Shown here piece after piece: positions 1-61,873 of a DNA stretch of 64,000 bases; positions within the stretch are counted from its first letter, which is position 1, and each line of letters starts with the position of its first letter. The stretch lies in contig JAKITS010000001.1 of the NCBI GenBank assembly GCA_021648085.1, forward strand, positions 324,948 through 388,947, in the 5' to 3' direction. This DNA is from Candidatus Magasanikiibacteriota bacterium (lineage in GTDB: Bacteria > Patescibacteriota > Patescibacteriia > Magasanikbacterales > UBA922). Under the pieces are notes generated by a model. That model was not told the DNA's origin. It made no database searches and was given only the letters and a program-made list of their open reading frames with translations. The position numbers and the translations under genes are program-made.

Positions 1-1128
1 TGGTTTACTAAAAATAAAGGTCCTTTGTACTGCTTACGAATTTGCTTCCAGACCAAATCAATCAACCTACCTTTTTGAGCAGTGTTTTCATATTTTACAC
101 CAAGCTCATCTAATTTCTTTTTCAAATCATCTTCCGAAGAGGTTAAAATATCTATATCTAATTTTTCTTTAATTGCAGAAACATAATCAAGTCTTTTCCA
201 CTTCTCTCCAAGATCAATTTCACCAAATTCTTTTAGATTAAACTTTAAAGTTCCCCAAGTTTTTTTTGCAACAAACTTTATCATTCTTTCGGTCATTTCC
301 ATGTTATCTTCATAGTTTTTATACGCCCAATAAAATTCCATTTGGGTATAATCTTGAAGGTGTTCCCTACTTATTCCTTCATTTCTAAATTGGCGACCTA
401 TCTCAAAGGTCTTCTCAAAACCACCGACCATAAGTCTTTTTTGCCACAACTCCCCCATTGAAATACGCAAGAACACATCTATATCTAGTGCGTTGTGATG
501 AGTTGAAAATGGAGATGCCTCTGCTCCTCCAGTTGTGGTTTCTAATACTGGTGTCTCCACCTCCAAAAATCCTTCGTTTACTAAAAATTCACGAATTGCA
601 GACCAAAATGTGCTTTTTCTTCTGAAAAGCTCTTTTGATTCTTTATTCATTATCAAGTCTAAATATCTTTTTCTAAATTTTATTTCTTCATTTTGAAGTC
701 CATGAAACTTGTCTGGCAAAGGAAGGAGTGATTTTGAAAGCATTTTCCAATTACTAACCAAAAGTGATTTCTCTTCTGTTTTTGTAATAAAAAAATCACC
801 AGAAACTTCAATAATATCTCCAATGTCTACTTTTTTTACGAAAAGTTTATAATTTTCTTTCCCCAAGTTATCCTGCTTGAAAACCATTTGCATTCTTGCA
901 CTTTCGTCTTCAATTTGTATGAAAGTCAATTTACCGATTTCTCTTTTCATCATGATTCTACCTACACAAACAAATTTATCATCTTCTTTTCCTAATAATA
1001 CTTCTGAAAGTGTATTTGTTCTGTCTGTTTTTGCTGGATAAGAATTTATGTTTAATTCTTGTAAATCTTGTAATTTTTTAAGGCGAACTGAACGCTCGTC
1101 ATTTATATTTACTTCGTTTGTATTCATA
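1..1128 (-). CDS. lysS: lysyl-tRNA synthetase, class II (C-terminal part lies beyond window start)
   Basis: Minus-strand translation from ATG at 1126-1128 gives MNTNEVNINDERSVRLKKLQDL... and later FEIGRQFRNEGIS and ETPVLETTTGGAEASPF (class II LysRS motifs). The frame is open to the window edge. Confidence 0.85.
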
Positions 1129-2154: not shown

Positions 2155-4134
2155 TTAAAACCTATATTCATACCACCACTTATAAAAATCATAGGCTATT
2201 TCTGTGGAGATTCCACTTCCCTCTTCTCCTTCTTCTACTAAAACTGTGACCACAATTTCTGGATAATTGAATGGTGCAAAAGATGTAAACCATGCATGAT
2301 TGTCTTTGGTAGAACTCCATTGCGCTGTTCCTGTTTTCCCTGCCACAAGCAGTGGAAGTGCAGAAAGTCTTCTGCAAGAACCATAAACAACACACTCACG
2401 CATTCCAAGTTTTGCTGTTTGAATATGACTTGAATTTATAAAATTTTCATTCAAAATAACTGTCTCAATTTTTTCTTCTTCTTTTGTCTCGGGGTTTATT
2501 ATTTTTTGAGCAATTCTAGGTTGATAAAGTGTGCCACCGTTTGCAACCACAGAAGTCATACTTGCTATTTGAAGTGGTGTCACCGAAACATCACCCTGAC
2601 CAATTGATAAATTATAAGTATCACCAACATACCACCTTTCATTTTTTACCTCTTGTTTCCACTCTTTTGATGGTAAGAACCCTTTTGCTTCTCCTGGAAT
2701 ATCTATATTCAATCTTTCTGCGAAACCAAATTTTTTTAGATATTCTACAATTTTTGTAGCGCCAAGACCCTCAAAATCATTGTATCCTCCACCGATATAA
2801 TAATAAAAAGTGTTTACAGACCAAGCCAAAGATTTGCGAACATTTGTAATTCCATGACCACCATATTTCCAATCTCTAAAAACCCACGAGCCAACATTAA
2901 TTCCTCCTGTACTTAAAAATGATGTTCTATTTGTAATTAATCCTTCTTGAAGTGCTGTAAGAGCTACTGCCATTTTTATTGTAGATCCAGATGGGTAGGT
3001 TCCACTTATTACTCTGTTGAATAGTGGGTTGTTTTCATTTTCCAAATATTCTTGATATTTTTGCAGCTCAATTCCTCCAGAAAAATCATTGTTATTAAAA
3101 GTGGGTAAACTTACTAAAGCTAAAATTTCTCCATTTCTGGGATCCATTACAATTACGGCGGCCTTCTTTTTATCGCTATCTTCCAAATATTTAGTAGTTA
3201 TTTCTTCCAATTTATTTTGAATTTCCAAGTCTATACTAAGTTGTACATGATCTCCGTGAACAGGAGCTTTTTCAATGACTACATTTTGTTTTCTACCGAA
3301 AGCGTTTACCTCAATTTTTTGATAGCCATACTTACCTCGCAAAGCTTTCTCATAAGTTTTCTCAATTCCTGTTTTTCCTATTGTGTCTGTCGGTATATAT
3401 CCTTTTGGATACAATTCTTTTAATTCTTCTGGGTTAAGTTTTCCAGCATAACCCAAAATATGAGATAAAGATAAATATTTTTTTTCACCCTCCTCTTTCA
3501 TTAAATAAAGTCTTTTACTTCTTCTTTCTATATTTATTCCTGGCAAATCGCTGGTTTCAATTTCTATCAAAAGTGCTGTTTCATAATCTAAATCATCTAA
3601 AATATCTATTGATTCATAACTGTAAGCTCCATATTCTTTTATAATTTCACTTATATCATCTCTATTTTTTTGTATCAATCCTGCTAATCTACTAATTATT
3701 TTATCCAATTCTTCTGCTTTTCTAGGCAAATCTTGCGGTGTAATGGCGAGAGAGAATTTCAAAACATTTTTGGTTAGTTGCTGTCTGTTTCTATCATAAA
3801 TAATTCCACGCTCTGCTGGCACAGGAATTGTTCTCTGACTATTATTTTTTGCCAAAAGTGAATAGTCTCCACCATCAACTATTTGGATAAAAAACACCCT
3901 TCCAATTAAAATAAAAAATATTATAAAAATTAAAATTAGCAACACCTTCTTTTTTTTAAGAGAAAAACTACTTCCCATATAGTTTTTACTTCCAGGAATA
4001 GCTGGCTGACGACTCGTTTTGTTTTGAAAAGAAAAAGAATCCTCAATCCAAGAATTTTTATATTTTCCTTCTAAACTTAAGTAGGAGAACTTTGGGATAG
4101 ATATTCCAAAAATTGTATTCTTATTTTTACTCAT
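2155..4134 (-). CDS. mrdA: penicillin-binding protein 2 / peptidoglycan D,D-transpeptidase (PBP2 or FtsI class)
   Basis: Transpeptidase motifs STIK (SxxK), SWN-like and KTGTA. N-terminal TM segment. Start taken at MSKNKN (4134), overlapping the mreD stop by 4 nt. Sits in the mreBCD operon. Confidence 0.85.
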   Translation of the reverse strand: MSKNKNTIFGISIPKFSYLSLEGKYKNSWIEDSFSFQNKTSRQPAIPGSKNYMGSSFSLKKKKVLLILIFIIFFILIGRVFFIQIVDGGDYSLLAKNNSQRTIPVPAERGIIYDRNRQQLTKNVLKFSLAITPQDLPRKAEELDKIISRLAGLIQKNRDDISEIIKEYGAYSYESIDILDDLDYETALLIEIETSDLPGINIERRSKRLYLMKEEGEKKYLSLSHILGYAGKLNPEELKELYPKGYIPTDTIGKTGIEKTYEKALRGKYGYQKIEVNAFGRKQNVVIEKAPVHGDHVQLSIDLEIQNKLEEITTKYLEDSDKKKAAVIVMDPRNGEILALVSLPTFNNNDFSGGIELQKYQEYLENENNPLFNRVISGTYPSGSTIKMAVALTALQEGLITNRTSFLSTGGINVGSWVFRDWKYGGHGITNVRKSLAWSVNTFYYYIGGGYNDFEGLGATKIVEYLKKFGFAERLNIDIPGEAKGFLPSKEWKQEVKNERWYVGDTYNLSIGQGDVSVTPLQIASMTSVVANGGTLYQPRIAQKIINPETKEEEKIETVILNENFINSSHIQTAKLGMRECVVYGSCRRLSALPLLVAGKTGTAQWSSTKDNHAWFTSFAPFNYPEIVVTVLVEEGEEGSGISTEIAYDFYKWWYEYRF

Positions 4135-27569: not shown

Positions 27570-27669
27570 AATTTATTTTAATTAATCTTTTAATCTTATA
27601 ATATCACAATTAACAAAATTGAGTAAATAAAAAGTAACACATATTAGGTTACTTTTTCGCTCGACGGGT

Positions 27670-28119
27670 CGGATTCGAACCGACGACCAATTGGTTACAC
27701 TCTACCCTCTGTTCCCAGAAGAAGTGGACTATATTATCACCCTCGCCTAAACCGCGTAAATCGCGGACGTTAGGGTGCGAAGCGCTTCCCAACAAATTGC
27801 AAACAATCTGTAAGTACTCCCGTAAAGGGATAGTCTCTGAACCTTCCGAATATAAGTCCTTATTACACAGACTATGCAAAACACATAAAGTGTACATATT
27901 CCTTTTTGTAATCTTTGGACTATACAAGGCTTGGCTGCTGATTGCCCTTGATATAGGGAACTGTTATTAAATACCATTTCTATTAAAAGCGTATTTAATG
28001 ACAGTTCCCAATTCATCGATTGGGTTTCCAGCAATTCACTTCGTTATTCACCTTGATGTTTCCACCAAGGGCTGCATTTTATATATACAGCCAACTGCTC
28101 TACCACTGAGCTACCGTCG
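27670..28119 (-). tRNA. tRNA-Asn(GUU), split by an intron in the anticodon loop (5' exon 28086-28119, 3' exon 27670-27707)
   Basis: Minus strand. 5' half TCGACGG-TA-GCTCAGTGGTAGAGC-A-GTTGG-CTGT and 3' half TAA-CCAAT-TGGTC-GTCGGTTCGAATCCGAC-CCGTCGA-G. Acceptor stem and T-arm are perfect. The spliced anticodon loop is CUGUUAA. Confidence 0.75.
27708..28085 (-). other. group I-like self-splicing intron (about 378 nt) inside tRNA-Asn
   Basis: Exon GGCUGU pairs with intron GCAGCC 9 nt into the intron (P1 with a U-G wobble at the splice site). P2 is CCTTGGTG-GAAA-CATCAAGG. CAGAGACTA motif in the P7 region. Intron ends in G (omega-G). The ORFs called inside it are spurious. Confidence 0.65.
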
Positions 28120-28165
28120 AATATTGGAACCTGAAAGATTCCTTTTGTAAAAATTACACCCCATC

Positions 28166-28407: not shown

Positions 28408-28503
28408 CCATCCTTAGCTTGACTAAAAATCCAGGGTTTAACTCAACATTCATTTACTAAAGACTCTGGATTCCCGATCAAGTCGGGAATGACATAAAGC
28501 AAA
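28408..28503. repeat. intergenic repeat family R2, copy A (contains ACTCTGGATTCC and hairpin ATTCCCGA-tcaag-TCGGGAAT)
   Basis: Homologous copy at 42945-43052 and partial copies at 55975-56000 and 56070-56102. Confidence 0.6.
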
Positions 28504-28504
28504 T

Positions 28505-28625
28505 ACGTCATATTGAGCGAAGTGAAACGGAGTCGAAATATCTCGAAACCATATCACCAAAACTATGAATATTTAAAGTTCTTATTAAATTATCTCGAGA
28601 TCCCCCTACTGTCGCTCAGGATGGC
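28505..28625. repeat. structured repeat family R1, copy A (about 120 nt, three nested helices)
   Basis: Outer helix CGTCATATTGAGCG/CGCTCAGGATGGCG, middle ATCTCGA/TCGAGAT, inner AGAACT-atgaatatttaa-AGTTCT. Second copy at 41814-41935 with compensatory substitutions. Confidence 0.65.
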
Positions 28626-28670
28626 GTCTATATTTTCTAACTTTCTACTTTTCTAACTTCATTAACTTTT

Positions 28671-39516: not shown

Positions 39517-39589
39517 ATTTTAGTTGTTTAATATAATTTAAATTAGTTCATTTTAGACATAAAATCAAGGAATTCAAAAAGTTAGAACT

Positions 39590-39637
39590 TTCGAATCCAT
39601 GCCGAGAGTGAAGCAGTTCACTCTCTCCTCTCTTCAC
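39590..39637. repeat. partial copy of the tRNA-linked repeat (TTCGAATCCatGCC plus hairpin GAGAGTGAA-gcag-TTCACTCTC plus CTCTCTTCAC)
   Basis: Shares TTCGAATCC-hairpin-CTCTC..TTCAC architecture with the units at 41583-41665 and 60791-61024. Confidence 0.5.
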
Positions 39638-41392: not shown

Positions 41393-41448
41393 GTTCGAAT
41401 CCCGTTCTTCCTCACATTTTTTTATTTGTTCGGAGGCAAAAATTCGGT
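41393..41448. repeat. tRNA 3'-end remnants (GTTCGAATCCCGTTCTTCCTCA on plus strand; TTGTTCGGAGGCAAAAATTCGG, a degenerate copy of the tRNA-Gln 3' end)
   Basis: T-loop-like TTCGAAT plus acceptor-like strings without 5' halves. TTGTTCGGAGGCA recurs at 41699-41711 adjoining the intact tRNA-Gln. Confidence 0.55.
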
Positions 41449-41582
41449 CACAGATAAATTTATTGACTTAAATTTTCCGCGACCCCGTCTCACGGTCTTC
41501 ACCTTACCTCTTCGGGTAAACTCAGACATCGCTCCGACTTTCAAATCCCTGTCGAGAGTGAAGCAAGGGCATGTTGATTCCT

Positions 41583-41665
41583 TTCGCTCCGACTCAAGCC
41601 GGGGTGTTGCGTGCTCTCACACCCTTCGAATCCCTGCCGTGACACAAGACTTTGTGTCACTCTCC
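41583..41665. repeat. tRNA-linked structured repeat core (Gln-locus copy)
   Basis: Over 85% identical to the 60791-61024 units. Hairpins GGGTGT/ACACCC and GTGACACAAG/CTTTGTGTCAC carry compensatory changes relative to GGGTGC/GCACCC and CAGGCAAAG/TTTTGCCTG. Confidence 0.6.
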
Positions 41666-41702
41666 AAACAAAAACAAACCTTTTCAGGTTTGTTTTTGTT
41701 TG
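41666..41702. terminator. hairpin AAACAAAAACAAACC-ttttca-GGTTTGTTTTTGTTT abutting the tRNA-Gln 3' end
   Basis: 15-bp stem identical to the one at 34794-34832. Confidence 0.6.
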
Positions 41703-41774
41703 TTCGGAGGCAGGGATTCGAACCCCGATAGTCAGGATCAAAACCTGAAGTCCTACCATTAGACGACCTCCGAA
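41703..41774 (-). tRNA. tRNA-Gln(UUG)
   Basis: TCGGAGG-TC-GTCT-AATGGTA-GGAC-T-TCAGG-TTTTGAT-CCTGA-CTATC-GGGGTTCGAATCCCTG-CCTCCGA-A. Anticodon loop UUUUGAU. Confidence 0.85.
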
Positions 41775-41813
41775 TATTTATAGAATTAAGAACTTAGATC
41801 TTAATTCTATTCA

Positions 41814-41935
41814 CGTCATATTGAGCAGAACGAAGTGGAGTCGAAATATCTCGATGCAATATTATTAGAACTATGAATATTTAAAGTTCTAGTGTTTTTG
41901 AATCGAGATCCATTCGACTTCGCCCAGGATGACAT
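41814..41935. repeat. structured repeat family R1, copy B
   Basis: Same three-helix architecture as 28505-28625. A 10-bp hairpin TAGAATTAAG-aacttagat-CTTAATTCTA sits at 41780-41808 between it and tRNA-Gln. Confidence 0.65.
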
Positions 41936-41976
41936 ATTTTTTACTTAATCTGCATACTTTGCCTAATTTGCTGACC

Positions 41977-51165: not shown

Positions 51166-51238
51166 GATCTGGTAGCTCAGTAGGTAGAGCAGCAGCCTTT
51201 TAAGCTGATGGTCGTGGGTTCGATCCCCACCCAGGTCA
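51166..51238 (+). tRNA. tRNA-Lys(UUU)
   Basis: GATCTGG-TA-GCTCAGTAGGTAGAGC-A-GCAGC-CTTTTAA-GCTGA-TGGTC-GTGGGTTCGATCCCCAC-CCAGGTC-A. Confidence 0.88.
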
Positions 51239-51312
51239 CAAAAAAAACATCTTAATTGGTGTTTTTTTATTTTTAATGTAAAATAGATATAAATTCTACA
51301 AAGGAGGGAAAA

Positions 51313-51594
51313 ATGGAAGCTGTAAGTATTAGTTCTGCAATTAATTCAATCTTAATAATCATTGGAATTCTGTATTTTACAGGAATTGCTCTTTACACAT
51401 TTACAATATTAGTAGATAAATCAAAAAAGTTTACGCAAAGAAAAATATTAAAAGTAATGATTCTTTTTTCTATACCTTTATTTGTCATAACTTTTTCAAG
51501 TATCTCAATGTCAAGCTCTGGTGCAAGTATTTTTATATACTGTTCACTTTTTATCTTATCAATCTTTTTTGTAATAACTTGGCACAAAACATAG
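51313..51594 (+). CDS. small 3-TM membrane protein, cassette 1
   Basis: RBS AAGGAGGG. Followed by the terminator AAAGCACCTAAACTGGGTGCTTTT. Confidence 0.5.
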   Translation: MEAVSISSAINSILIIIGILYFTGIALYTFTILVDKSKKFTQRKILKVMILFSIPLFVITFSSISMSSSGASIFIYCSLFILSIFFVITWHKT

Positions 51595-51597
51595 TAA

Positions 51598-51624
51598 CAA
51601 AAAAGCACCTAAACTGGGTGCTTT
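51598..51624 (+). terminator. cassette terminator 1 (GCACCTAAACTGGGTGC hairpin)
   Basis: First of three near-identical hairpins (see 52028 and 52436). Confidence 0.7.
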
Positions 51625-51696
51625 TAATTTACAAAAATATAAAAAAATGGTAGTATGAAGTAGGTCTTATTTTTTTACACCCAAAAGGAGGTACAA

Positions 51697-52020
51697 ATGT
51701 CTGAATTTCTAAATTCAATTGTAAATATTAATACCTACTCACTATTGCACTTTTTAGTTATAATTACTTTTATATTTATTATGATTTCAATAATTTGTCA
51801 GGTTTTTTTGAAAAAATATTATTATATACTTGTTATTTCAGTTTGTTCTACACTCTTGTTTTCTGTGATTACTTTTTCCACAGGACTTTATTATATGATA
51901 TTCGACTTATCTTCAGAACTTAGTATTATGATATATGTAAGTTTAGTGCTTATTTTTATAAATATGATCATAAATGCTTTAAATATGAACTGGGTGTTAG
52001 ATAAATATAAAAAGGTATAG
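51697..52020 (+). CDS. small 3-TM membrane protein, cassette 2
   Basis: RBS AAAGGAGG. Own TTTACA/TAGTAT promoter. Followed by terminator copy 2. Confidence 0.5.
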   Translation: MSEFLNSIVNINTYSLLHFLVIITFIFIMISIICQVFLKKYYYILVISVCSTLLFSVITFSTGLYYMIFDLSSELSIMIYVSLVLIFINMIINALNMNWVLDKYKKV

Positions 52021-52027
52021 AAACAGT

Positions 52028-52053
52028 AAAGCACCTAAATTAGGTGCTTTTTT
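52028..52053 (+). terminator. cassette terminator 2 (GCACCTAAATTAGGTGC hairpin)
   Basis: Repeat of the terminator at 51598. Confidence 0.7.
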
Positions 52054-52055
52054 AA

Positions 52056-52083
52056 TTGACAAAATATCTAAAAAATGATAATG
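52056..52083 (+). promoter_or_regulatory. cassette promoter (TTGACA - 15/16 nt - GATAAT), fused to the preceding terminator repeat
   Basis: TTAATTGACA follows the terminator in copies 2 and 3; copy 1 has TTAATTTACA. Confidence 0.55.
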
Positions 52084-52122
52084 TAGTGTTTGAAAATAAA
52101 CCAAAAAAATAGAGGAATACGC

Positions 52123-52446
52123 GTGAATTATCTAGAAATTCTAAAAACACTTATAATGTTTAGTTTATTTTCAATAGCACTGCACATTATATTTTATATG
52201 TTTTTTGCAGGAAATCCCTATTCAACATTTGGTAAATCTAACGCAACTTTGGAAAAAACATCCACATCTAGCACTTTGACAATCACAGGACTTACAAGTT
52301 TAGCCTGGATTTATCTAGCTTTTGTAGAAAAAATAGAGATGAGTACAAAAATTACAGCAATTTGCTTTATTATAATCTGTATTTTTTTTGGAATTTTAAT
52401 ATCCCAATCTAAAACATTTAAAAGTGATAATCCACGAAGCACCTAA
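52123..52446 (+). CDS. small 3-TM membrane protein, cassette 3 (GTG start assumed)
   Basis: The ORF-track start at 52090 lies before the predicted -10 (52077-52082) and TSS. AGAGGAA RBS precedes in-frame GTG at 52123. Confidence 0.45.
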   Translation: MNYLEILKTLIMFSLFSIALHIIFYMFFAGNPYSTFGKSNATLEKTSTSSTLTITGLTSLAWIYLAFVEKIEMSTKITAICFIIICIFFGILISQSKTFKSDNPRST

Positions 52447-52462
52447 TTTAGGTGCTTTTTTA
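52436..52462 (+). terminator. cassette terminator 3 (GCACCTAATTTAGGTGC hairpin)
   Basis: Repeat of the terminator at 51598. Confidence 0.7.
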
Positions 52463-52523
52463 ATTGACAGCTTTGATAAAAAAATATTATGCTAAATAGA
52501 GTTCTTTAACAAAGGAGTTCCCA

Positions 52524-52820
52524 ATGAATGAGTTCATTTACAGATCGCTTTTTGTTGTTGCAGATTTTGCTTGCTTATTTACAATTGTTTTATTACTTCC
52601 ATATTATGTTTATCCAAGAATAAAACTCAAACTTATTCCACGAGCTAAAAATTTAAAAGCATTATCTTTTTCTTCTTTTACAACAGCATTTCTATATTTT
52701 ATATGTTTTCTAGAAAATTATACTTGGTATTTTCTACTTACTTCTATAATATTTATAGTCTCATCTATGTTTTTTATGGGGCAACTAATAGAATATAAAC
52801 GCAAAACAACGGGTAAATAA
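52524..52820 (+). CDS. small 3-TM membrane protein, cassette 4
   Basis: RBS AAAGGAG. Different terminator (CCCGTTGTTTTTTT). Confidence 0.5.
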   Translation: MNEFIYRSLFVVADFACLFTIVLLLPYYVYPRIKLKLIPRAKNLKALSFSSFTTAFLYFICFLENYTWYFLLTSIIFIVSSMFFMGQLIEYKRKTTGK

Positions 52821-59978: not shown

Positions 59979-60491
59979 TTAATTATTTCTAAAAAAAGTT
60001 TGTTCAAAAAAAAATTTAACTTTTTCTTTTAATTCATCATCTGATATTTTTTTACTTTCATTCTTCATTGCAACAATAATTGCAAGATTATAAAGCCCAA
60101 AATCTTTTGGTTCAAACCCTTTCCAGTTATAAAAACTACAATCACCAAATAACGATTTTAAAATACTTTTATAGTTTTCTTTTGATAAAACAGAAGGTAA
60201 ATAATTATTTTTTTCTAAAAAATAAACAGTACTAACAACAGAAAGTCTTTTATTTCCATTAGAGAAATAGTGAGTATTTATATTTATAAACAAAAATGAA
60301 GCTTTATCCGTTATGTTTGGATAATAAATAGTTTTAGACCTATCAATTAAAGCAAAATATTCGTCAATTGAATCTCTTTGACTATCATAATCTGGCACCT
60401 CTTCTTTATGTTCATATTCAAAACCTCTAATAATATTAATGATATTGATTAAATCTTCCGGTAAAATATATTCAATATTATTTTGTATCAT
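59979..60491 (-). CDS. Fic/Doc-family protein (Doc-type motif HYFSNGNKR)
   Basis: The HxFx(D/N)GNKR variant characteristic of Doc toxins. 170 aa. Confidence 0.7.
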   Translation of the reverse strand: MIQNNIEYILPEDLINIINIIRGFEYEHKEEVPDYDSQRDSIDEYFALIDRSKTIYYPNITDKASFLFININTHYFSNGNKRLSVVSTVYFLEKNNYLPSVLSKENYKSILKSLFGDCSFYNWKGFEPKDFGLYNLAIIVAMKNESKKISDDELKEKVKFFFEQTFFRNN

Positions 60492-60499
60492 AAATAAAT

Positions 60500-60673
60500 T
60501 TATGTATTTCCAAGCCTTTTAACAACAATGCTATAATTTCTTTTTACAGATTTTGCTGTAGTTTTGCTTTTGTAAGAACCGATAATTTGCCCCTTCTTTC
60601 CAGAAGAAGTGGTTCTTTGTCTAATTGCATAATATTTTTTTGTAGAGGTATTATGAATTCTTTTTGTAGCCAT
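60500..60673 (-). CDS. possible 57-aa basic protein immediately upstream of doc (MATKRIHNTSTKKYYAIRQRTTSSGKKGQIIGSYKSKTTAKSVKRNYSIVVKRLGNT)
   Basis: Complete ORF below the track size cutoff. Its stop is 8 nt before the Doc start, the antitoxin position in phd-doc operons. Confidence 0.35.
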   Translation of the reverse strand: MATKRIHNTSTKKYYAIRQRTTSSGKKGQIIGSYKSKTTAKSVKRNYSIVVKRLGNT

Positions 60674-60790
60674 ACTATTTTATTTATATTTATTTTATCA
60701 TTTTTATTTTTAAAAAACAAGCTTTATTTTTAAATCAAAATCAAAAAAGTTTTTTGATTTTAAACTATTCTAAAAAAGTGGCAGGACTTT

Positions 60791-61024
60791 TTTCGCTCCG
60801 ACTCAAGCCGGGGTGCTACGCGCTCTCGCACCCTTCGAATCCCGACACAGGCAAAGACTTTTGCCTGCTCTCTCTCCTTCACTTCGTTGCGGAAAGGGCG
60901 GGATTCCTTTCGCTCCGACTCAAGCCGGGGTGCTACGCGCTCTCGCACCCTTCGAATCCCGACACAGGCAAAGACTTTTGCCTGCTCTCTCTCCTTCACT
61001 TCGTTGCGGAAAGGGCGGGATTCG
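60791..61024. repeat. two perfect tandem 117-bp direct repeats downstream of tRNA-Ser, each ending with a copy of the tRNA 3'-terminal ~18 nt
   Basis: TTTCGCTCCG at 60791 and again at 60908. TGCGGAAAGGGCGGGATTC at 60888-60906 and 61005-61023 (the latter is the real tRNA 3' end). Overlapping ORFs on both strands are spurious. Confidence 0.8.
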
Positions 61025-61093
61025 AACCCACGGTACGATTTCTCGTACACATGCTTTCCAAGCATGCGCATTAAACCACTCTGCCACCTTTCC
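61007..61093 (-). tRNA. tRNA-Ser(GGA)
   Basis: GGAAAGG-TG-GCAGAGTGGTTTAATGC-GCATGC-TTGGAAA-GCATG- long variable arm TGTACGAGAAATCGTACC -GTGGGTTCGAATCCCGC-CCTTTCC-G. Confidence 0.85.
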
Positions 61094-61102
61094 AATTTTA
61101 TT

Positions 61103-61873
61103 TTATGTACTTTTTTTATTTATTTTATAAAATAAAAATATTCCACTTATCAAAAGAATAATAGCAAAATATTGAGCTGGAGTCAATCCTAAATACCTAA
61201 CATCTGCATGTGCTATATCTACTGCCCTAAAAAAATCCAACACAAAACGCATAAAACCATATTCTGTGAGTAAAATAATTGTAAACCAACCGTCGCCAAA
61301 TTTTACTTTTTTTCTAAGAATCAAAAAAATAATAGCCACAGGAATCAACCACAAAATTTCTAGCAATGCCATTTCTAGTCTTGCTCCGTCTGGCGTATTT
61401 ATAGCAAGAAAAAAGTCTACTTTTTGACCCAAATGATCGTGAATTGCAAAACACCCAAGCCTGCCAACAATCCAACCAAAAATTGCAGAAAAACTTAGTA
61501 AATCTGCAATCTTCAAATATATTTCTTTATTCCAACTTCTACTTGAACCGTAAATAAAAAATCCCAAAACTGCACCGAATAAACCACCAAAAGAAGAAAA
61601 TCCACCGTTCCAAACTTTGAATATTTCAAAAGGATTGCTGAAAAAGAAAGAAGGCTCATAAAATGCAATGTGAAAAATTCTAGCAAATAAAAAACCTAAA
61701 ACAATAATTAACAACATCAAATTGGTCAAACTCTCTGAATCCATTCCAACTTCTTTTGATTTTTTAAGTAAGATTATAAAAGAAGTCAAAAAACCAAGTG
61801 CAACAAAGAAACCCCAAGCATAAATTGTCAAAGGACCTATATTAAAACTTAGATATTGAAACCACGGAATCAT
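61103..61873 (-). CDS. lgt: prolipoprotein diacylglyceryl transferase
   Basis: SIGPL..YAWG N-terminus, FxxWNGGxSxxGG, GRLGCF. 7 TM. Confidence 0.85.

What the first reader, a model, noticed from the sequence alone, without database searches (positions are those of the whole stretch)
41393..41776. tRNA-Gln locus carries the same repeat core plus several tRNA 3'-end remnants and a 13-nt direct repeat flanking a 259-nt insert
TTGTTCGGAGGCA (the tRNA-Gln 3' end plus 3 nt) occurs at 41699-41711, adjoining the intact tRNA, and again at 41427-41439. The segment between them contains: (i) an ~85-nt core almost identical to the tRNA-Ser units (41583-41665); (ii) a truncated upstream copy (CGCTCCGACTTTCAAATCCCTGTCGAGAGTGAAGCA at 41530-41565); and (iii) a plus-strand tRNA T-loop/acceptor remnant, GTTCGAATCCCGTTCTTCCTCA. 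Between the two loci the core shows compensatory changes in two hairpins: GGGTGT/ACACCC against GGGTGC/GCACCC, and GTGACACAAG..CTTTGTGTCAC against CAGGCAAAG..TTTTGCCTG. Stems preserved by paired changes suggest selection on an RNA or ssDNA structure. A third partial copy lies at 39590-39637.
Basis: seen in the sequence. Interest (0 to 1): 0.65.

Follow-up and report, generated by a model that had tools for sequence, protein, structure and literature searches.

The report
Structured tRNA-linked repeats in a Patescibacterium
Just downstream of a serine tRNA gene and a glutamine tRNA gene, this candidate-phylum bacterium carries about 117-base repeat modules that each end in a copy of the tRNA's own tail and fold into a conserved tRNA-like shape, a distant-phylum counterpart of the long-unexplained "tRNA-linked repeats" of E. 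coli.

Summary
The repeats lie on the tRNA (minus) strand, directly 3' of tRNA-Ser(GGA) as two tandem 117-nt units. At tRNA-Gln(UUG) there is one full core, one rearranged unit and fragments.

The same unit was found in about 20 other Patescibacteria loci. In 18 of the 20 it lies downstream of a called tRNA-Ser (any isoacceptor) or tRNA-Gln; in the other two, contig-end loci, the upstream tRNA is not seen. Nearly every intact unit ends in a 17-20-nt copy of the local tRNA's 3' end.

Upstream strands of the unit pair with that copy. This closes an acceptor/T-arm-like helix that carries a variable hairpin (hpA) and a conserved three-way-junction core at the T-loop position.

Structural evidence:
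- Compensatory changes are abundant: 7 of 9 pairs in hpA, and 5 pairs in stem B and hpC.
- G·U pairs (15) outnumber A·C pairs (5), which favours the tRNA strand.
- In an orthologous locus every stem change is compensatory.

The units meet the definition of E. coli tRNA-linked repeats (TLRs, such as RtT) but share no detectable sequence homology with them.

They are patchy: five of seven orthologous tRNA-Ser sites are empty. Copy number varies between strains, and the window's Gln-locus copy is decaying.

Best reading: co-transcribed modules that mimic the tRNA end and are cut out by tRNA-processing enzymes. Their downstream function is unknown.

The parts
61007..61093 (-). tRNA-Ser(GGA), the head of the Ser array. 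No CCA is encoded.
   Evidence: ARAGORN; Rfam tRNA 60.2 bits.
61158..61186 (-). Promoter-like site (TTGACT-17-TGnTATTAT) about 65 nt upstream of tRNA-Ser. It is a candidate promoter for a tRNA-plus-units transcript.
   Evidence: Consensus scan, 10 of 12 matches. This is a pattern match only. No terminator-like site was found between the tRNA and the units.
60890..61006 (-). Type-1 unit 1 (117 nt). In order it contains: the trailer CAACGAAGUGAA; GGAGAG (P1 5' strand); hpA (9 bp, loop AGUC); CGGGAUUC (stem B 5' strand); GAA; hpC (GGGUGC/GCACCC); hpD (CGGC-UUGA-GUCG); GAGCGAAAG; and GAAUCCCGCCCUUUCCG, a 17-nt exact copy of the tRNA-Ser 3' end.
   Evidence: family D1. Model R1 scores 99.2 bits. 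The MFE fold gives P1, hpA, stem B, hpC and hpD. Exact copy of the tRNA end confirmed.
60773..60889 (-). Type-1 unit 2, the terminal unit. Its core is intact, but its copy of the tRNA 3' end has decayed to AAAGUCCUGCCACUUUUUU.
   Evidence: 97% identical to unit 1. R1 scores 73.3 bits. Alignment A1.
41703..41773 (-). tRNA-Gln(UUG), the head of the Gln array.
   Evidence: ARAGORN; Rfam tRNA 62.1 bits.
41666..41702 (-). Trailer with an A/U-rich, terminator-like hairpin between tRNA-Gln and the unit. It is homologous to the hairpin in the related loci L004 and L024.
   Evidence: Sequence; fold; L004 and L024 sequences. The strict terminator scan did not call it because it has too few G-C pairs.
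41576..41665 (-). Type-1 unit at the Gln locus. Sub-parts: GGAGA 41661-41665; hpA 41639-41660; stem B 5' strand GGCAGGGAUUC 41628-41638; hpC 41602-41624; hpD about 41589-41601; GAGCGAAAGGAAUC down to 41576. It has lost its own copy of the tRNA end.
   Evidence: R1 scores 72.1 bits; alignment A1. The intact orthologous unit is in L004.
41566..41575 (-). Junction AACAUGCCCU. It replaces the expected sequence running from the tRNA-end copy to the 5' half of the next hpA, so it marks a deletion that fused two units.
   Evidence: Comparison with intact arrays in L004, L005 and L011. This is an inference.
41527..41565 (-). Short, type-2-like partial unit: the 3' half of an hpA (UGCUUCACUCUC), GACAGGGAUUUGAA, then directly AGUCGGAGCGAUG. 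hpC is absent.
   Evidence: Repeat family D11. The same short form occurs in L005 at 2855-2979 (21.4 bits) and in L024 (25.5 bits).
41446..41526 (-). G+C-rich hairpin-forming filler inside the rearranged unit (45-56% GC in a 32% GC window).
   Evidence: Composition profile. Fold of 41427-41711 has z = -6.7.
41426..41445 (-). Distal, decayed copy of the tRNA-Gln 3' end (GAAUUUUUGCCUCCGAACAA). It still pairs with GGCAGGGAUUC through G·U pairs.
   Evidence: pairing seen in the MFE fold.
41393..41415 (-). Truncated unit start (GUGAGGAAGAACGGGAUUCGAAC).
   Evidence: Sequence. The motif CGGGAUUCGAA is identical to that of the Ser units. Arrays in L005 and L021 also end in truncated unit 5' parts. 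This is an inference.
39587..39637 (-). Isolated partial unit: the trailer-like GUGAAGAGAGGAGAG overlapping its hpA (GAGAGUGAA-CUGC-UUCACUCUC), then GGCAUGGAUUCGAAAG, where it stops.
   Evidence: Repeat family D11; sequence; included in hpA alignment A3.

Best explanation
These are tRNA-linked repeats (TLRs) of a structured kind specific to Patescibacteria.

Anatomy. Each unit of about 117 nt lies on the tRNA strand directly after tRNA-Ser, or secondarily after tRNA-Gln. It ends in a 17-20-nt copy of that tRNA's 3' end, running from the T-loop GAAUC through the T-stem and acceptor 3' strands to the discriminator. Earlier in the unit, GGAGAG(G) pairs with the acceptor-strand copy to form P1. 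A strand such as GGGAUUC, matched to the locus, pairs with GAAUCCC to form stem B. Together these rebuild an acceptor/T-arm-like helix. A long variable hairpin (hpA) takes the place of the D, anticodon and variable arms. A conserved junction (GAA / hpC / hpD / GAGCGAAAG) sits where the T-loop would be.

Likely mechanism. The units are transcribed with the tRNA. Because each ends in a tRNA-like terminus, the tRNA end-processing enzymes cut them out as discrete small RNAs of roughly 105-117 nt. Those enzymes would be RNase Z at the discriminator, RNase P before GGAGAG, and possibly the CCA-adding enzyme. Arrays grow, shrink and decay by unequal recombination between the repeated tRNA ends.

Shown here: position, strand, the repeat of the local tRNA end, the fold, compensatory evolution, purifying selection, copy-number polymorphism and patchy distribution.

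Inferred: transcription, processing, and any trans-acting function of the released RNA.
For: Position and repeat of the tRNA end.
- 21 strong matches to model R1 lie in the window and 16 other loci, and 4 more in L020/L021.
- Nearly all lie 3' of, and on the same strand as, a called tRNA-Ser (GGA, GCU, UGA or CGA) or tRNA-Gln; in L006-L008 the upstream tRNA is not seen.
- Each intact unit ends in a copy of the local tRNA's 3' end. Examples: GAAUCUCACCCUCGCCG in L003, GAAUCCCUGCCUCCGAA in L004, GAAUCCCGCUCUCACCG in L021.

Stem B tracks the local T-stem.
- GGGAUUC/GAAUCCC changes to GAGAUUC/GAAUCUC.
- In L004 the unit has CAGGG where the tRNA's own T-stem has CGGGG. The strand is therefore complementary to the 3' strand, not copied from the tRNA.

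Covariation.
- Alignment A2: 93.5% of cells paired, 5 pairs and 13 cells with changes on both sides, 0 of 500 shuffles reach this, and slid controls reach at most 49%.
- hpA (alignment A3): 99% paired, 7 of 9 pairs with double changes.
- G·U 15 against A·C 5.

Selection at an orthologous locus. Window against L021: about 83% unit identity, every stem change compensatory, unpaired parts about 90% identical. Third codon positions of the neighbouring lgt gene are only 64.6% identical.

Fold. The MFE of precisely cut units gives P1, hpA and stem B with hpC and hpD. P1 forms in 13 of 18 distinct units.

Transcription context. No terminator-like site lies between tRNA-Ser and the units, and a promoter-like site lies upstream.

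Definition of the kind. In E. coli TLRs, 18-19 bp at the 3' end are identical to the 3' end of the upstream tRNA, there are one to five per locus, and the repeated end is thought to direct processing (PMC8144298). The E. coli RtT unit shows the same plan: a closing stem GGGGAAGGAU/AUCCUUCCCC and a copy of the T-arm 5' half, CUUCG(ACC)AAGGUUCGA.
Against: - There are no expression data, so transcription and processing are inferred.
- At the Gln loci a terminator-like hairpin separates the tRNA from the unit.
- The elements are dispensable and unstable. Orthologous tRNA-Ser(GGA) sites are empty in L022, L023, L028, L029 and L030. tRNA-Gln sites are empty in L025 and L026. The window and L024 Gln units are degraded. 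Copy number differs between near-identical strains: L011 has 3 and L014 has 1; L021 has 2 and L020 has 1.
- P1 is missing in four variant units and has a mismatch in L021 and L012, so acceptor mimicry is not universal.
- Much of the apparent core invariance is ascertainment: the collection scans required 23-25 exact bases.
Confidence: 0.6

Rival explanations
1. These are scars or miniature derivatives of integrase-mobilised elements that target the T-loop and 3' end of tRNA genes. The repeated tRNA ends would be attL/attR, and the unit would be a conserved attP-like remnant that a tyrosine recombinase supplied in trans recognises as DNA.
For: - Direct repeats of the tRNA 3' end starting in the T-loop are the classic signature of tRNA-targeted integration (established knowledge).
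- Empty sites exist in relatives.
- A phage-type integrase sits next to the orthologous tRNA-Ser(GGA) in L028.
- Accessory genes lie just beyond several arrays: Fic/Doc in the window, EcoRI methylase and RhuM in L021, MjaI endonuclease in L011, HNH in L010.
Against: - The units are 82-123 nt with no ORF.
- No integrase, transposase or reverse transcriptase was found among the flanking proteins of unit-bearing loci.
- There is no similarity to phage or plasmid records or viral contigs.
- hpA keeps its pairing while its sequence is completely replaced, and G·U pairs are favoured. Both are unlike protein-binding arm sites in duplex DNA.
- The two halves of the T-arm palindrome are separated by about 50 nt, not by a 6-8-nt overlap region.
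- L028 shows no unit-like sequence next to its integrase.
Confidence: 0.13
2. This is neutral by-product DNA: decaying partial tandem duplications of a tRNA-Ser gene (pseudo-tRNAs lacking the D and anticodon arms), homogenised with the neighbouring tRNA by gene conversion and having no function.
For: - The unit order mirrors a class II tRNA minus its D and anticodon arms: acceptor 5' strand GGAGAGG, a long hairpin, T-stem 5' strand, T-loop, 3' end.
- Terminal copies decay.
- Truncated and internally deleted copies are frequent.
- Copy number is polymorphic and distribution is patchy.
Against: - Conservation spans genomes whose loci run from 32% to 45% GC and several Patescibacteria lineages.
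- Changes in the stems are compensatory, while unpaired core positions evolve more slowly than third codon positions.
- The stem B 5' strand complements the 3' strand rather than copying the tRNA (L004).
Confidence: 0.12
3. The hairpins act as single-stranded DNA, for example as cruciform or lagging-strand structures used by a HUH/Y1-type transposase or in replication and recombination, rather than as RNA.
For: - Stems alone cannot separate RNA from ssDNA.
- The repeats sit in recombination-prone arrays.
- Subterminal hairpins are typical of IS200/IS605-type elements (established knowledge).
Against: - G·U(T) pairs are three times as common as A·C, a strand asymmetry expected for RNA.
- The units are always co-oriented with a highly transcribed tRNA gene.
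- No TnpA or RAYT gene lies nearby.
- The repeated tRNA end is unlike IS200/IS605 insertion, which makes no duplication.
Confidence: 0.04

Closest known systems
E. coli tRNA-linked repeats (TLRs; Egan & Landy 1978; Rudd 1999), as summarised in PMC8144298
   Same: - They lie immediately downstream of a tRNA in the same operon and on the same strand.
- There are one to five units per locus.
- The 3' 17-20 nt of each unit is identical to the 3' end of the upstream tRNA.
- Function is largely unknown.
- The repeated end is thought to recreate a processing site.
   Different: - A different phylum (Patescibacteria) and different tRNAs (Ser and Gln).
- No sequence similarity: blastn against 5,426 E. 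coli genomes found nothing.
- This family has a defined, covarying secondary structure and a core conserved across several lineages.
RtT RNA of the E. coli tyrT-tyrV operon (Rfam RF00391; rttR)
   Same: - Tandem units (178 nt, 3.1 copies) follow a class II tRNA.
- Each unit ends in the tRNA's last 19 nt.
- An upstream strand (GGGGAAGGAU) pairs with that copy.
- The unit also holds a copy of the T-arm 5' half up to UUCGA, so the T-arm is split by an insert, as it is here.
   Different: - The Rfam RtT model scores only 13.7 bits on the window unit, against a gathering score of 45.
- The Patescibacteria model R1 finds nothing significant in the tyrT locus.
- The inserts differ in length and sequence.
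- RtT has no hpA equivalent at the same place.
- The RtT copy includes CCA; the units here do not.
3'ETS-leuZ and RrA/B/F: functional small RNAs released from tRNA or rRNA operon trailers in E. coli
   Same: They are RNA modules co-transcribed downstream of a stable RNA gene and released by the normal processing machinery. RrA/B/F are themselves TLRs (PMC8144298).
   Different: Those act as sponges or as Hfq/CsrA partners. No partner or target is known here, and there is no sequence relation.
tRNA-like processing modules such as mascRNA at the MALAT1 3' end (own knowledge: Wilusz et al. 2008)
   Same: An acceptor/T-arm mimic embedded in a longer transcript is recognised by RNase P and RNase Z and then receives CCA. 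This is the mechanism proposed here.
   Different: That system is eukaryotic and has a full cloverleaf-like fold. Here the T-loop is replaced by a three-way junction, and processing is untested.

Membership tests
tRNA-linked repeats (TLR, E. coli definition) | Located immediately downstream of a tRNA or rRNA gene, on the same strand, within the operon | tested here: met
   Window Ser and Gln loci and nearly all of the ~20 related loci. In L006-L008 the upstream tRNA is not seen.
tRNA-linked repeats (TLR, E. coli definition) | The 3' end of the unit (18-19 bp in E. coli) is identical to the 3' end of the upstream tRNA | tested here: met
   17 of 17 nt at the Ser locus. 17 of 20 nt (13 consecutive and exact) at the window Gln locus. 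17-44 nt in other loci.
tRNA-linked repeats (TLR, E. coli definition) | One to several units per locus, often in tandem | tested here: met
   2 in the window, 3 in L011, 2 in L021, and 1-2 plus fragments elsewhere.
tRNA-linked repeats (TLR, E. coli definition) | Transcribed with the operon and processed to a discrete RNA | not testable with these tools
   The only evidence is a promoter-like site upstream and no terminator-like site between the tRNA and the units.
RtT RNA (Rfam RF00391) | Score at or above the family's gathering threshold (45 bits) | tested here: not met
   13.7 bits, E = 3.7-7.6. The reciprocal model R1 is not significant on tyrT.
tRNA gene or pseudogene (RF00005 / ARAGORN) | Cloverleaf with D, anticodon and T arms | tested here: not met
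   No unit is called by ARAGORN or the Rfam tRNA model. Only the acceptor and T-stem strands are tRNA-like.
Integrative element at a tRNA gene (tyrosine-integrase att sites) | The insert is bounded by direct repeats of the tRNA 3' end, and empty sites exist in relatives | tested here: met
   Empty sites in L022, L023, L025, L026 and L028-L030.
Integrative element at a tRNA gene (tyrosine-integrase att sites) | An integrase (and cargo) is encoded within or next to the insert | tested here: not met
   The units have no ORF. Ten flanking proteins from unit-bearing loci include no integrase. The only integrase seen (L028) is at an empty site.
Known self-cleaving ribozymes, riboswitches and small RNAs (all 4227 Rfam 15 families) | Match to a curated covariance model | tested here: not met
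   No family reaches its threshold on the units. The best chance-level hits are Clostridiales-1 (15.8 bits) and RtT (13.7 bits).
Intrinsic terminator (for hpA) | G+C-rich hairpin followed by a U tract | tested here: not met
   hpA is followed by G/C-rich stem B sequence, and no terminator-like site was called.
MITE / IS200-IS605-type hairpin element | Terminal or subterminal hairpins plus a cognate transposase somewhere in the genome, and no long target duplication | tested here: inconclusive
   Hairpins are present. However, each unit duplicates 17-44 nt of the tRNA end, and no transposase lies nearby. Whole genomes were not searched.

The most novel reading that the evidence does not exclude
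The type-1 unit may be a tRNA-Ser-derived 'minimal acceptor RNA'. It keeps exactly the parts that seryl-tRNA synthetase reads: a GGAGAGG/CCUCUCC acceptor stem, the G73 discriminator, and a long extra hairpin just before the T-stem. It has lost the D and anticodon arms and gained a conserved junction in the T-loop. After excision by RNase P and RNase Z and addition of CCA, it would be an anticodon-less RNA that can be charged with serine. Alternatively it could act as a decoy for tRNA-Ser-binding enzymes, serving a non-ribosomal role. The E. coli RtT unit, derived from the class II tRNA-Tyr, would be a convergent or related case. This would give the 45-year-old TLR puzzle a testable function.
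Probability: 0.1. Interest if true: 0.85.

Novelty: new variant of a known kind. Interest (0 to 1): 0.55.

Why it matters
tRNA-linked repeats have been known in E. coli since 1978. Apart from three rRNA-operon members, they still have no function. According to the literature found here, they are treated as an enterobacterial curiosity.

This finding shows the same architecture in Patescibacteria, which have small, streamlined genomes where non-functional DNA is rare. The shared plan is a unit after a tRNA that ends in the tRNA's own 3' end, with that end paired to an upstream strand and the T-arm split by an insert. The Patescibacteria units carry clear compensatory evolution and purifying selection.

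This suggests that TLRs are a general, structured class of RNA linked to tRNA operons rather than recombination debris. It also supplies a compact, covarying model (about 105-117 nt) on which processing, CCA addition and aminoacylation can be tested directly.

The units also mark unstable, island-prone tRNA loci, which matters for annotating genomes assembled from metagenomes.

Tried and rejected
- **Known RNA families.** Rfam was run at gathering and permissive thresholds over both loci and found nothing. Hammerhead, twister, pistol and HDV-like cores were compared by eye and do not fit the junction linkers (GAA / 0-1 nt / GAGCGAAAG).
- **tmRNA or permuted tmRNA.** ARAGORN found none.
- **Phage or plasmid origin.** Exact-pattern scans of viral contigs gave no unit. 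The two hits to an 18-mer were chance matches in coding sequence. blastn against phage and plasmid records gave no match.
- **Sequence homology with E. coli TLRs or RtT.** blastn against E. coli genomes gave none. Model R1 on tyrT was not significant. The shared GGAUGAGAAG between E. coli RtT and the 82-nt type-3 units of L020/L021 is too short to evaluate.
- **Alternative helix.** An extended hpD (CGCCCCGGC/GUCGGAGCG) appears in some MFE folds of G+C-rich copies. It is rejected because the partner GCG is invariant while the other strand changes together with the hpC 5' strand.
- **Core derived from a tRNA-Ser D-arm.** The resemblance of GGCUUGAGUCGGAGCGAAAG to GGCUGAGUGGUCGAAAG needs three gaps, and shuffle p values are 0.04-0.3. 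This was not pursued.
- **Coding potential.** The ORFs across the array start inside the tRNA and are not supported, because stems change on both sides.
- **hpA as a terminator.** It has no U tract.
Full report
**Setting.** The window has 32% G+C. It comes from a Candidatus Magasanikbacteria (Patescibacteria/CPR) genome assembled from a metagenome: its Lgt and FtsX proteins are 100% identical to proteins on a 984-kb contig of that name. ARAGORN and Rfam find three tRNA genes: tRNA-Gln(UUG) at 41703-41773 (-), tRNA-Lys at 51166-51239 (+) and tRNA-Ser(GGA) at 61007-61093 (-). The flagged segment is a local G+C peak of 45-56%.

**Checking the observation.**
- It is the last 10 nt of tRNA-Gln plus 3 trailer nt. 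The homology extends to 20 nt with three C>T changes, and none is expected by chance.
- The core at 41576-41665 is 88-93% identical to two tandem 117-nt units that follow tRNA-Ser, at 60890-61006 and 60773-60889.
- The truncated copy (41527-41565) and the partial copy (39587-39637) are real.
- The 'plus-strand tRNA remnant' lies at 41393-41414, outside the repeat-bounded segment. On the minus strand it reads ...GAACGGGAUUCGAAC, which is the start of a unit.

**Orientation and anatomy.** Read on the tRNA strand, an intact unit runs as follows:
- a purine-rich trailer, CAACGAAGUGAA;
- GGAGAG;
- hairpin hpA, 9-12 bp with a tetraloop;
- 2-5 nt;
- GGGAUUC, then GAA;
- hairpin hpC, GGGYGC/GCRCCC with an 11-nt loop;
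- hairpin hpD, CCGRC-UUGA-GUCGG;
- GAGCGAAAG;
- GAAUCCCGCCCUUUCCG.

The last 17 nt are an exact copy of the tRNA-Ser 3' end, from the T-loop to the discriminator. When a unit is cut exactly from one discriminator to the next, the MFE fold pairs GGAGAG with the acceptor-strand copy (P1). It pairs GGGAUUC with GAAUCCC (stem B). hpA is left at the P1/stem B junction, and hpC and hpD sit inside stem B. P1 appears in 13 of 18 distinct units.

**Relatives.**
- One exact-pattern scan of 185,579 species genomes found two Patescibacteria genomes, one of them Candidatus Uhrbacteria.
- One scan of metagenome contigs found 14 more loci, mostly from groundwater.
- In nearly every case the unit lies downstream of, and co-oriented with, a tRNA-Ser (GGA, GCU, UGA or CGA) or, in L004, tRNA-Gln. 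In L006-L008 no tRNA is seen immediately upstream.
- In nearly every intact unit the 3' end copies the local tRNA's 3' end, whatever its sequence, often with part of the trailer.
- The stem B 5' strand follows suit: GAGAUUC where the T-stem strand is CUCAC, and CAGGGAUUC at tRNA-Gln, where the tRNA's own 5' T-stem strand is CGGGG. It is therefore kept complementary, not copied.

**Covariation and selection.**
- For stem B, hpC and hpD in 13 distinct sequences, 93.5% of cells pair. Five pairs (13 cells) change on both sides. No shuffle out of 500 reaches this, and slid controls reach at most 49%.
- In hpA, 13 different sequences are 99% paired, and 7 of 9 pairs show double changes. These hairpins were picked by folding, so the percentage paired is partly circular; the replacement of sequence at a fixed position is not.
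- G·U pairs (15) outnumber A·C pairs (5), which favours the tRNA strand.
- An unbiased comparison comes from the orthologous lgt-tRNA-Ser(GGA) locus of a relative with 73% Lgt identity (L020/L021). It was fetched through the protein, not the repeat. It also carries two units, about 83% identical to the window's. All stem differences are compensatory (five pairs in hpA, three in hpC). Unpaired parts are about 90% identical. Third codon positions of lgt are 64.6% identical.
- This argues for purifying selection on an RNA structure.

**Dynamics.**
- Copy number differs between near-identical contigs. L011 has three units and L014 has one. An 82-nt 'type-3' unit after tRNA-Ser(CGA) occurs twice in L021 and once in L020.
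- Terminal units have decayed tRNA-end copies.
- Arrays often end in truncated unit starts.
- A short form lacking hpC recurs in the window (41527-41565), in L005 and in L024.
- Orthologous tRNA-Ser(GGA) sites are empty in five more distant Magasanikbacteria. tRNA-Gln sites are empty in two.
- At the Gln locus L004 has an intact unit. L024 and the window have degraded ones. In the window a deletion fused the first unit to a second, rearranged one. The distal tRNA end has drifted to GAAUUUUUGCC, which still pairs by G·U with GGCAGGGAUUC.
- The family is therefore accessory. The Gln copies look like secondary offshoots, plausibly seeded by the similarity between GAAUCCCUGCCUC (Gln) and GAAUCCCUCCCUC (Ser). 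That last point is an inference.

**What it is not.**
- No Rfam family fits.
- No unit occurs in viral contigs, phage records or plasmid records.
- Flanking genes are housekeeping genes (GroEL, HtrA, IF-2, ComF-like) or accessory genes (restriction-modification, HNH, Fic/Doc). None is an integrase, transposase or reverse transcriptase.
- The only integrase seen sits at an empty orthologous site.

**Comparison with what is known.**
- The units meet the definition of E. coli tRNA-linked repeats. There are 22 TLRs at ten loci. Each lies downstream of a tRNA or rRNA gene, has 18-19 bp at its 3' end identical to the 3' end of that gene, and has no known function, except RrA/B/F. The repeated end is thought to direct processing (PMC8144298).
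- I fetched the tyrT-tyrV-rttR locus. The 178-nt RtT unit ends in the last 19 nt of tRNA-Tyr. It pairs that copy with an upstream GGGGAAGGAU. It also holds a copy of the T-arm 5' half, CUUCG(ACC)AAGGUUCGA. Its T-arm is therefore split by an insert, just as here.
- There is still no detectable homology. The Rfam RtT model gives 13.7 bits against a threshold of 45. My model R1 is not significant on tyrT. blastn against 5,426 E. coli genomes finds nothing.
- The finding therefore works like a TLR and fits the TLR definition, but it is not a member of the RtT family.

**Mechanism and confidence.**
- Best explanation (0.6): the modules are co-transcribed and mimic the tRNA end. Their P1/stem B helix presents a tRNA-like 3' terminus to RNase Z, RNase P and perhaps the CCA-adding enzyme, releasing small RNAs of about 105-117 nt. 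Arrays change by unequal recombination between the repeated ends. Transcription is only suggested by a promoter-like site upstream and the absence of a terminator-like site between tRNA-Ser and the units. Processing and function are inferred.
- Rivals: integrase-related att scars (0.13), neutral pseudo-tRNA debris (0.12), and ssDNA hairpins (0.04).
- Most novel reading not excluded (0.1): the unit is a tRNA-Ser-derived, anticodon-less acceptor RNA that keeps the SerRS identity elements.

**Caveats.**
- The collection scans demanded 23-25 exact bases, so core invariance is partly ascertainment. Only L020/L021 are free of that bias.
- The E-values from R1 are rough.
- No expression data were available.

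Noticed in passing
window 27645-28125 (-): A tRNA gene, probably tRNA-Thr(UGU), is interrupted in the anticodon loop by a group I intron. Rfam Intron_gpI scores 79.9 bits at 27705-28096, above the gathering score of 50. ARAGORN and the whole-window Rfam gathering scan both missed it. An orthologous intron-containing tRNA lies downstream of tRNA-Gln in L025 (about 3745-4125).
   Followed up: partly
window 41806-41938 and 28498-28630: Two copies (78% identical over 99 nt) of a long imperfect palindrome of about 125 nt (GUCAUCCUGGGCGAAGUCGAAUGGAUCUCGA...UCGAGAUAUUUCGACUCC...). One sits immediately upstream of tRNA-Gln. Fold z-scores are -5.7 and -2.5. It looks like a MITE and matches no Rfam family.
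   Followed up: partly
L020 4279-4362; L021 4279-4444; truncated start at L021 about 4095-4125: A second kind of tRNA-linked unit (82 nt, no hpA) follows tRNA-Ser(CGA): GGGUGGGAU-GAGAAG-hpC-like hairpin-...-GGAAUCCCACCCUCUCCG. There is one copy in L020 and two in L021. Its 5' strand complements the local tRNA end 2 nt into the acceptor strand. It shares GGAUGAGAAG with the E. coli RtT unit.
   Followed up: partly
L019 (E. coli K-12 NC_000913 1286000-1288200), RtT units at locus 705-1263: Besides the known 19-nt copy of the tRNA-Tyr end, the RtT unit contains a copy of the variable-arm end and the T-arm 5' half (CUUCGACCAAGGUUCGA). RtT therefore looks like a tRNA-Tyr derivative with the T-loop split by an insert of about 66 nt. 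The papers I read do not mention this.
   Followed up: partly
L010 about 560-1000 (-) against L005 3040-3075: A free-standing HNH endonuclease gene lies between the repeat array and tRNA-Ser(UGA) in L010. In the related L005 only its last 30 nt or so remain, abutting a truncated unit.
   Followed up: no
L028 2833-3762: A phage-type integrase gene (PF00589) ends 19 nt after the orthologous tRNA-Ser(GGA), at a site with no repeat unit. This tRNA is therefore also an integration target in the lineage.
   Followed up: partly
window 59979-60673 (-): A 170-aa protein with a weak Fic/DOC match (E = 9e-4, below the Pfam cut-off) and a 57-aa very basic ORF lie directly downstream of the tRNA-Ser repeat array. 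This may be a toxin-antitoxin islet at the array's end.
   Followed up: no
window 51240-52820 (+): tRNA-Lys is followed by a terminator and then by three repeats (51603, 52029, 52437) of a hairpin plus an A/T-rich spacer. Each precedes one of several small ORFs of similar size (93-118 aa). There is no tRNA-end copy, so this is not a tRNA-linked repeat.
   Followed up: no
unit core, e.g. window 60907-60930 (-): The invariant 3' part of the core (GGCUUGAGUCGGAGCGAAAG) resembles the D-arm of tRNA-Ser(GCU) (GGCUGAGUGGUCGAAAG). The match needs three gaps, and shuffle p values are 0.04-0.3, so it is unresolved.
   Followed up: partly
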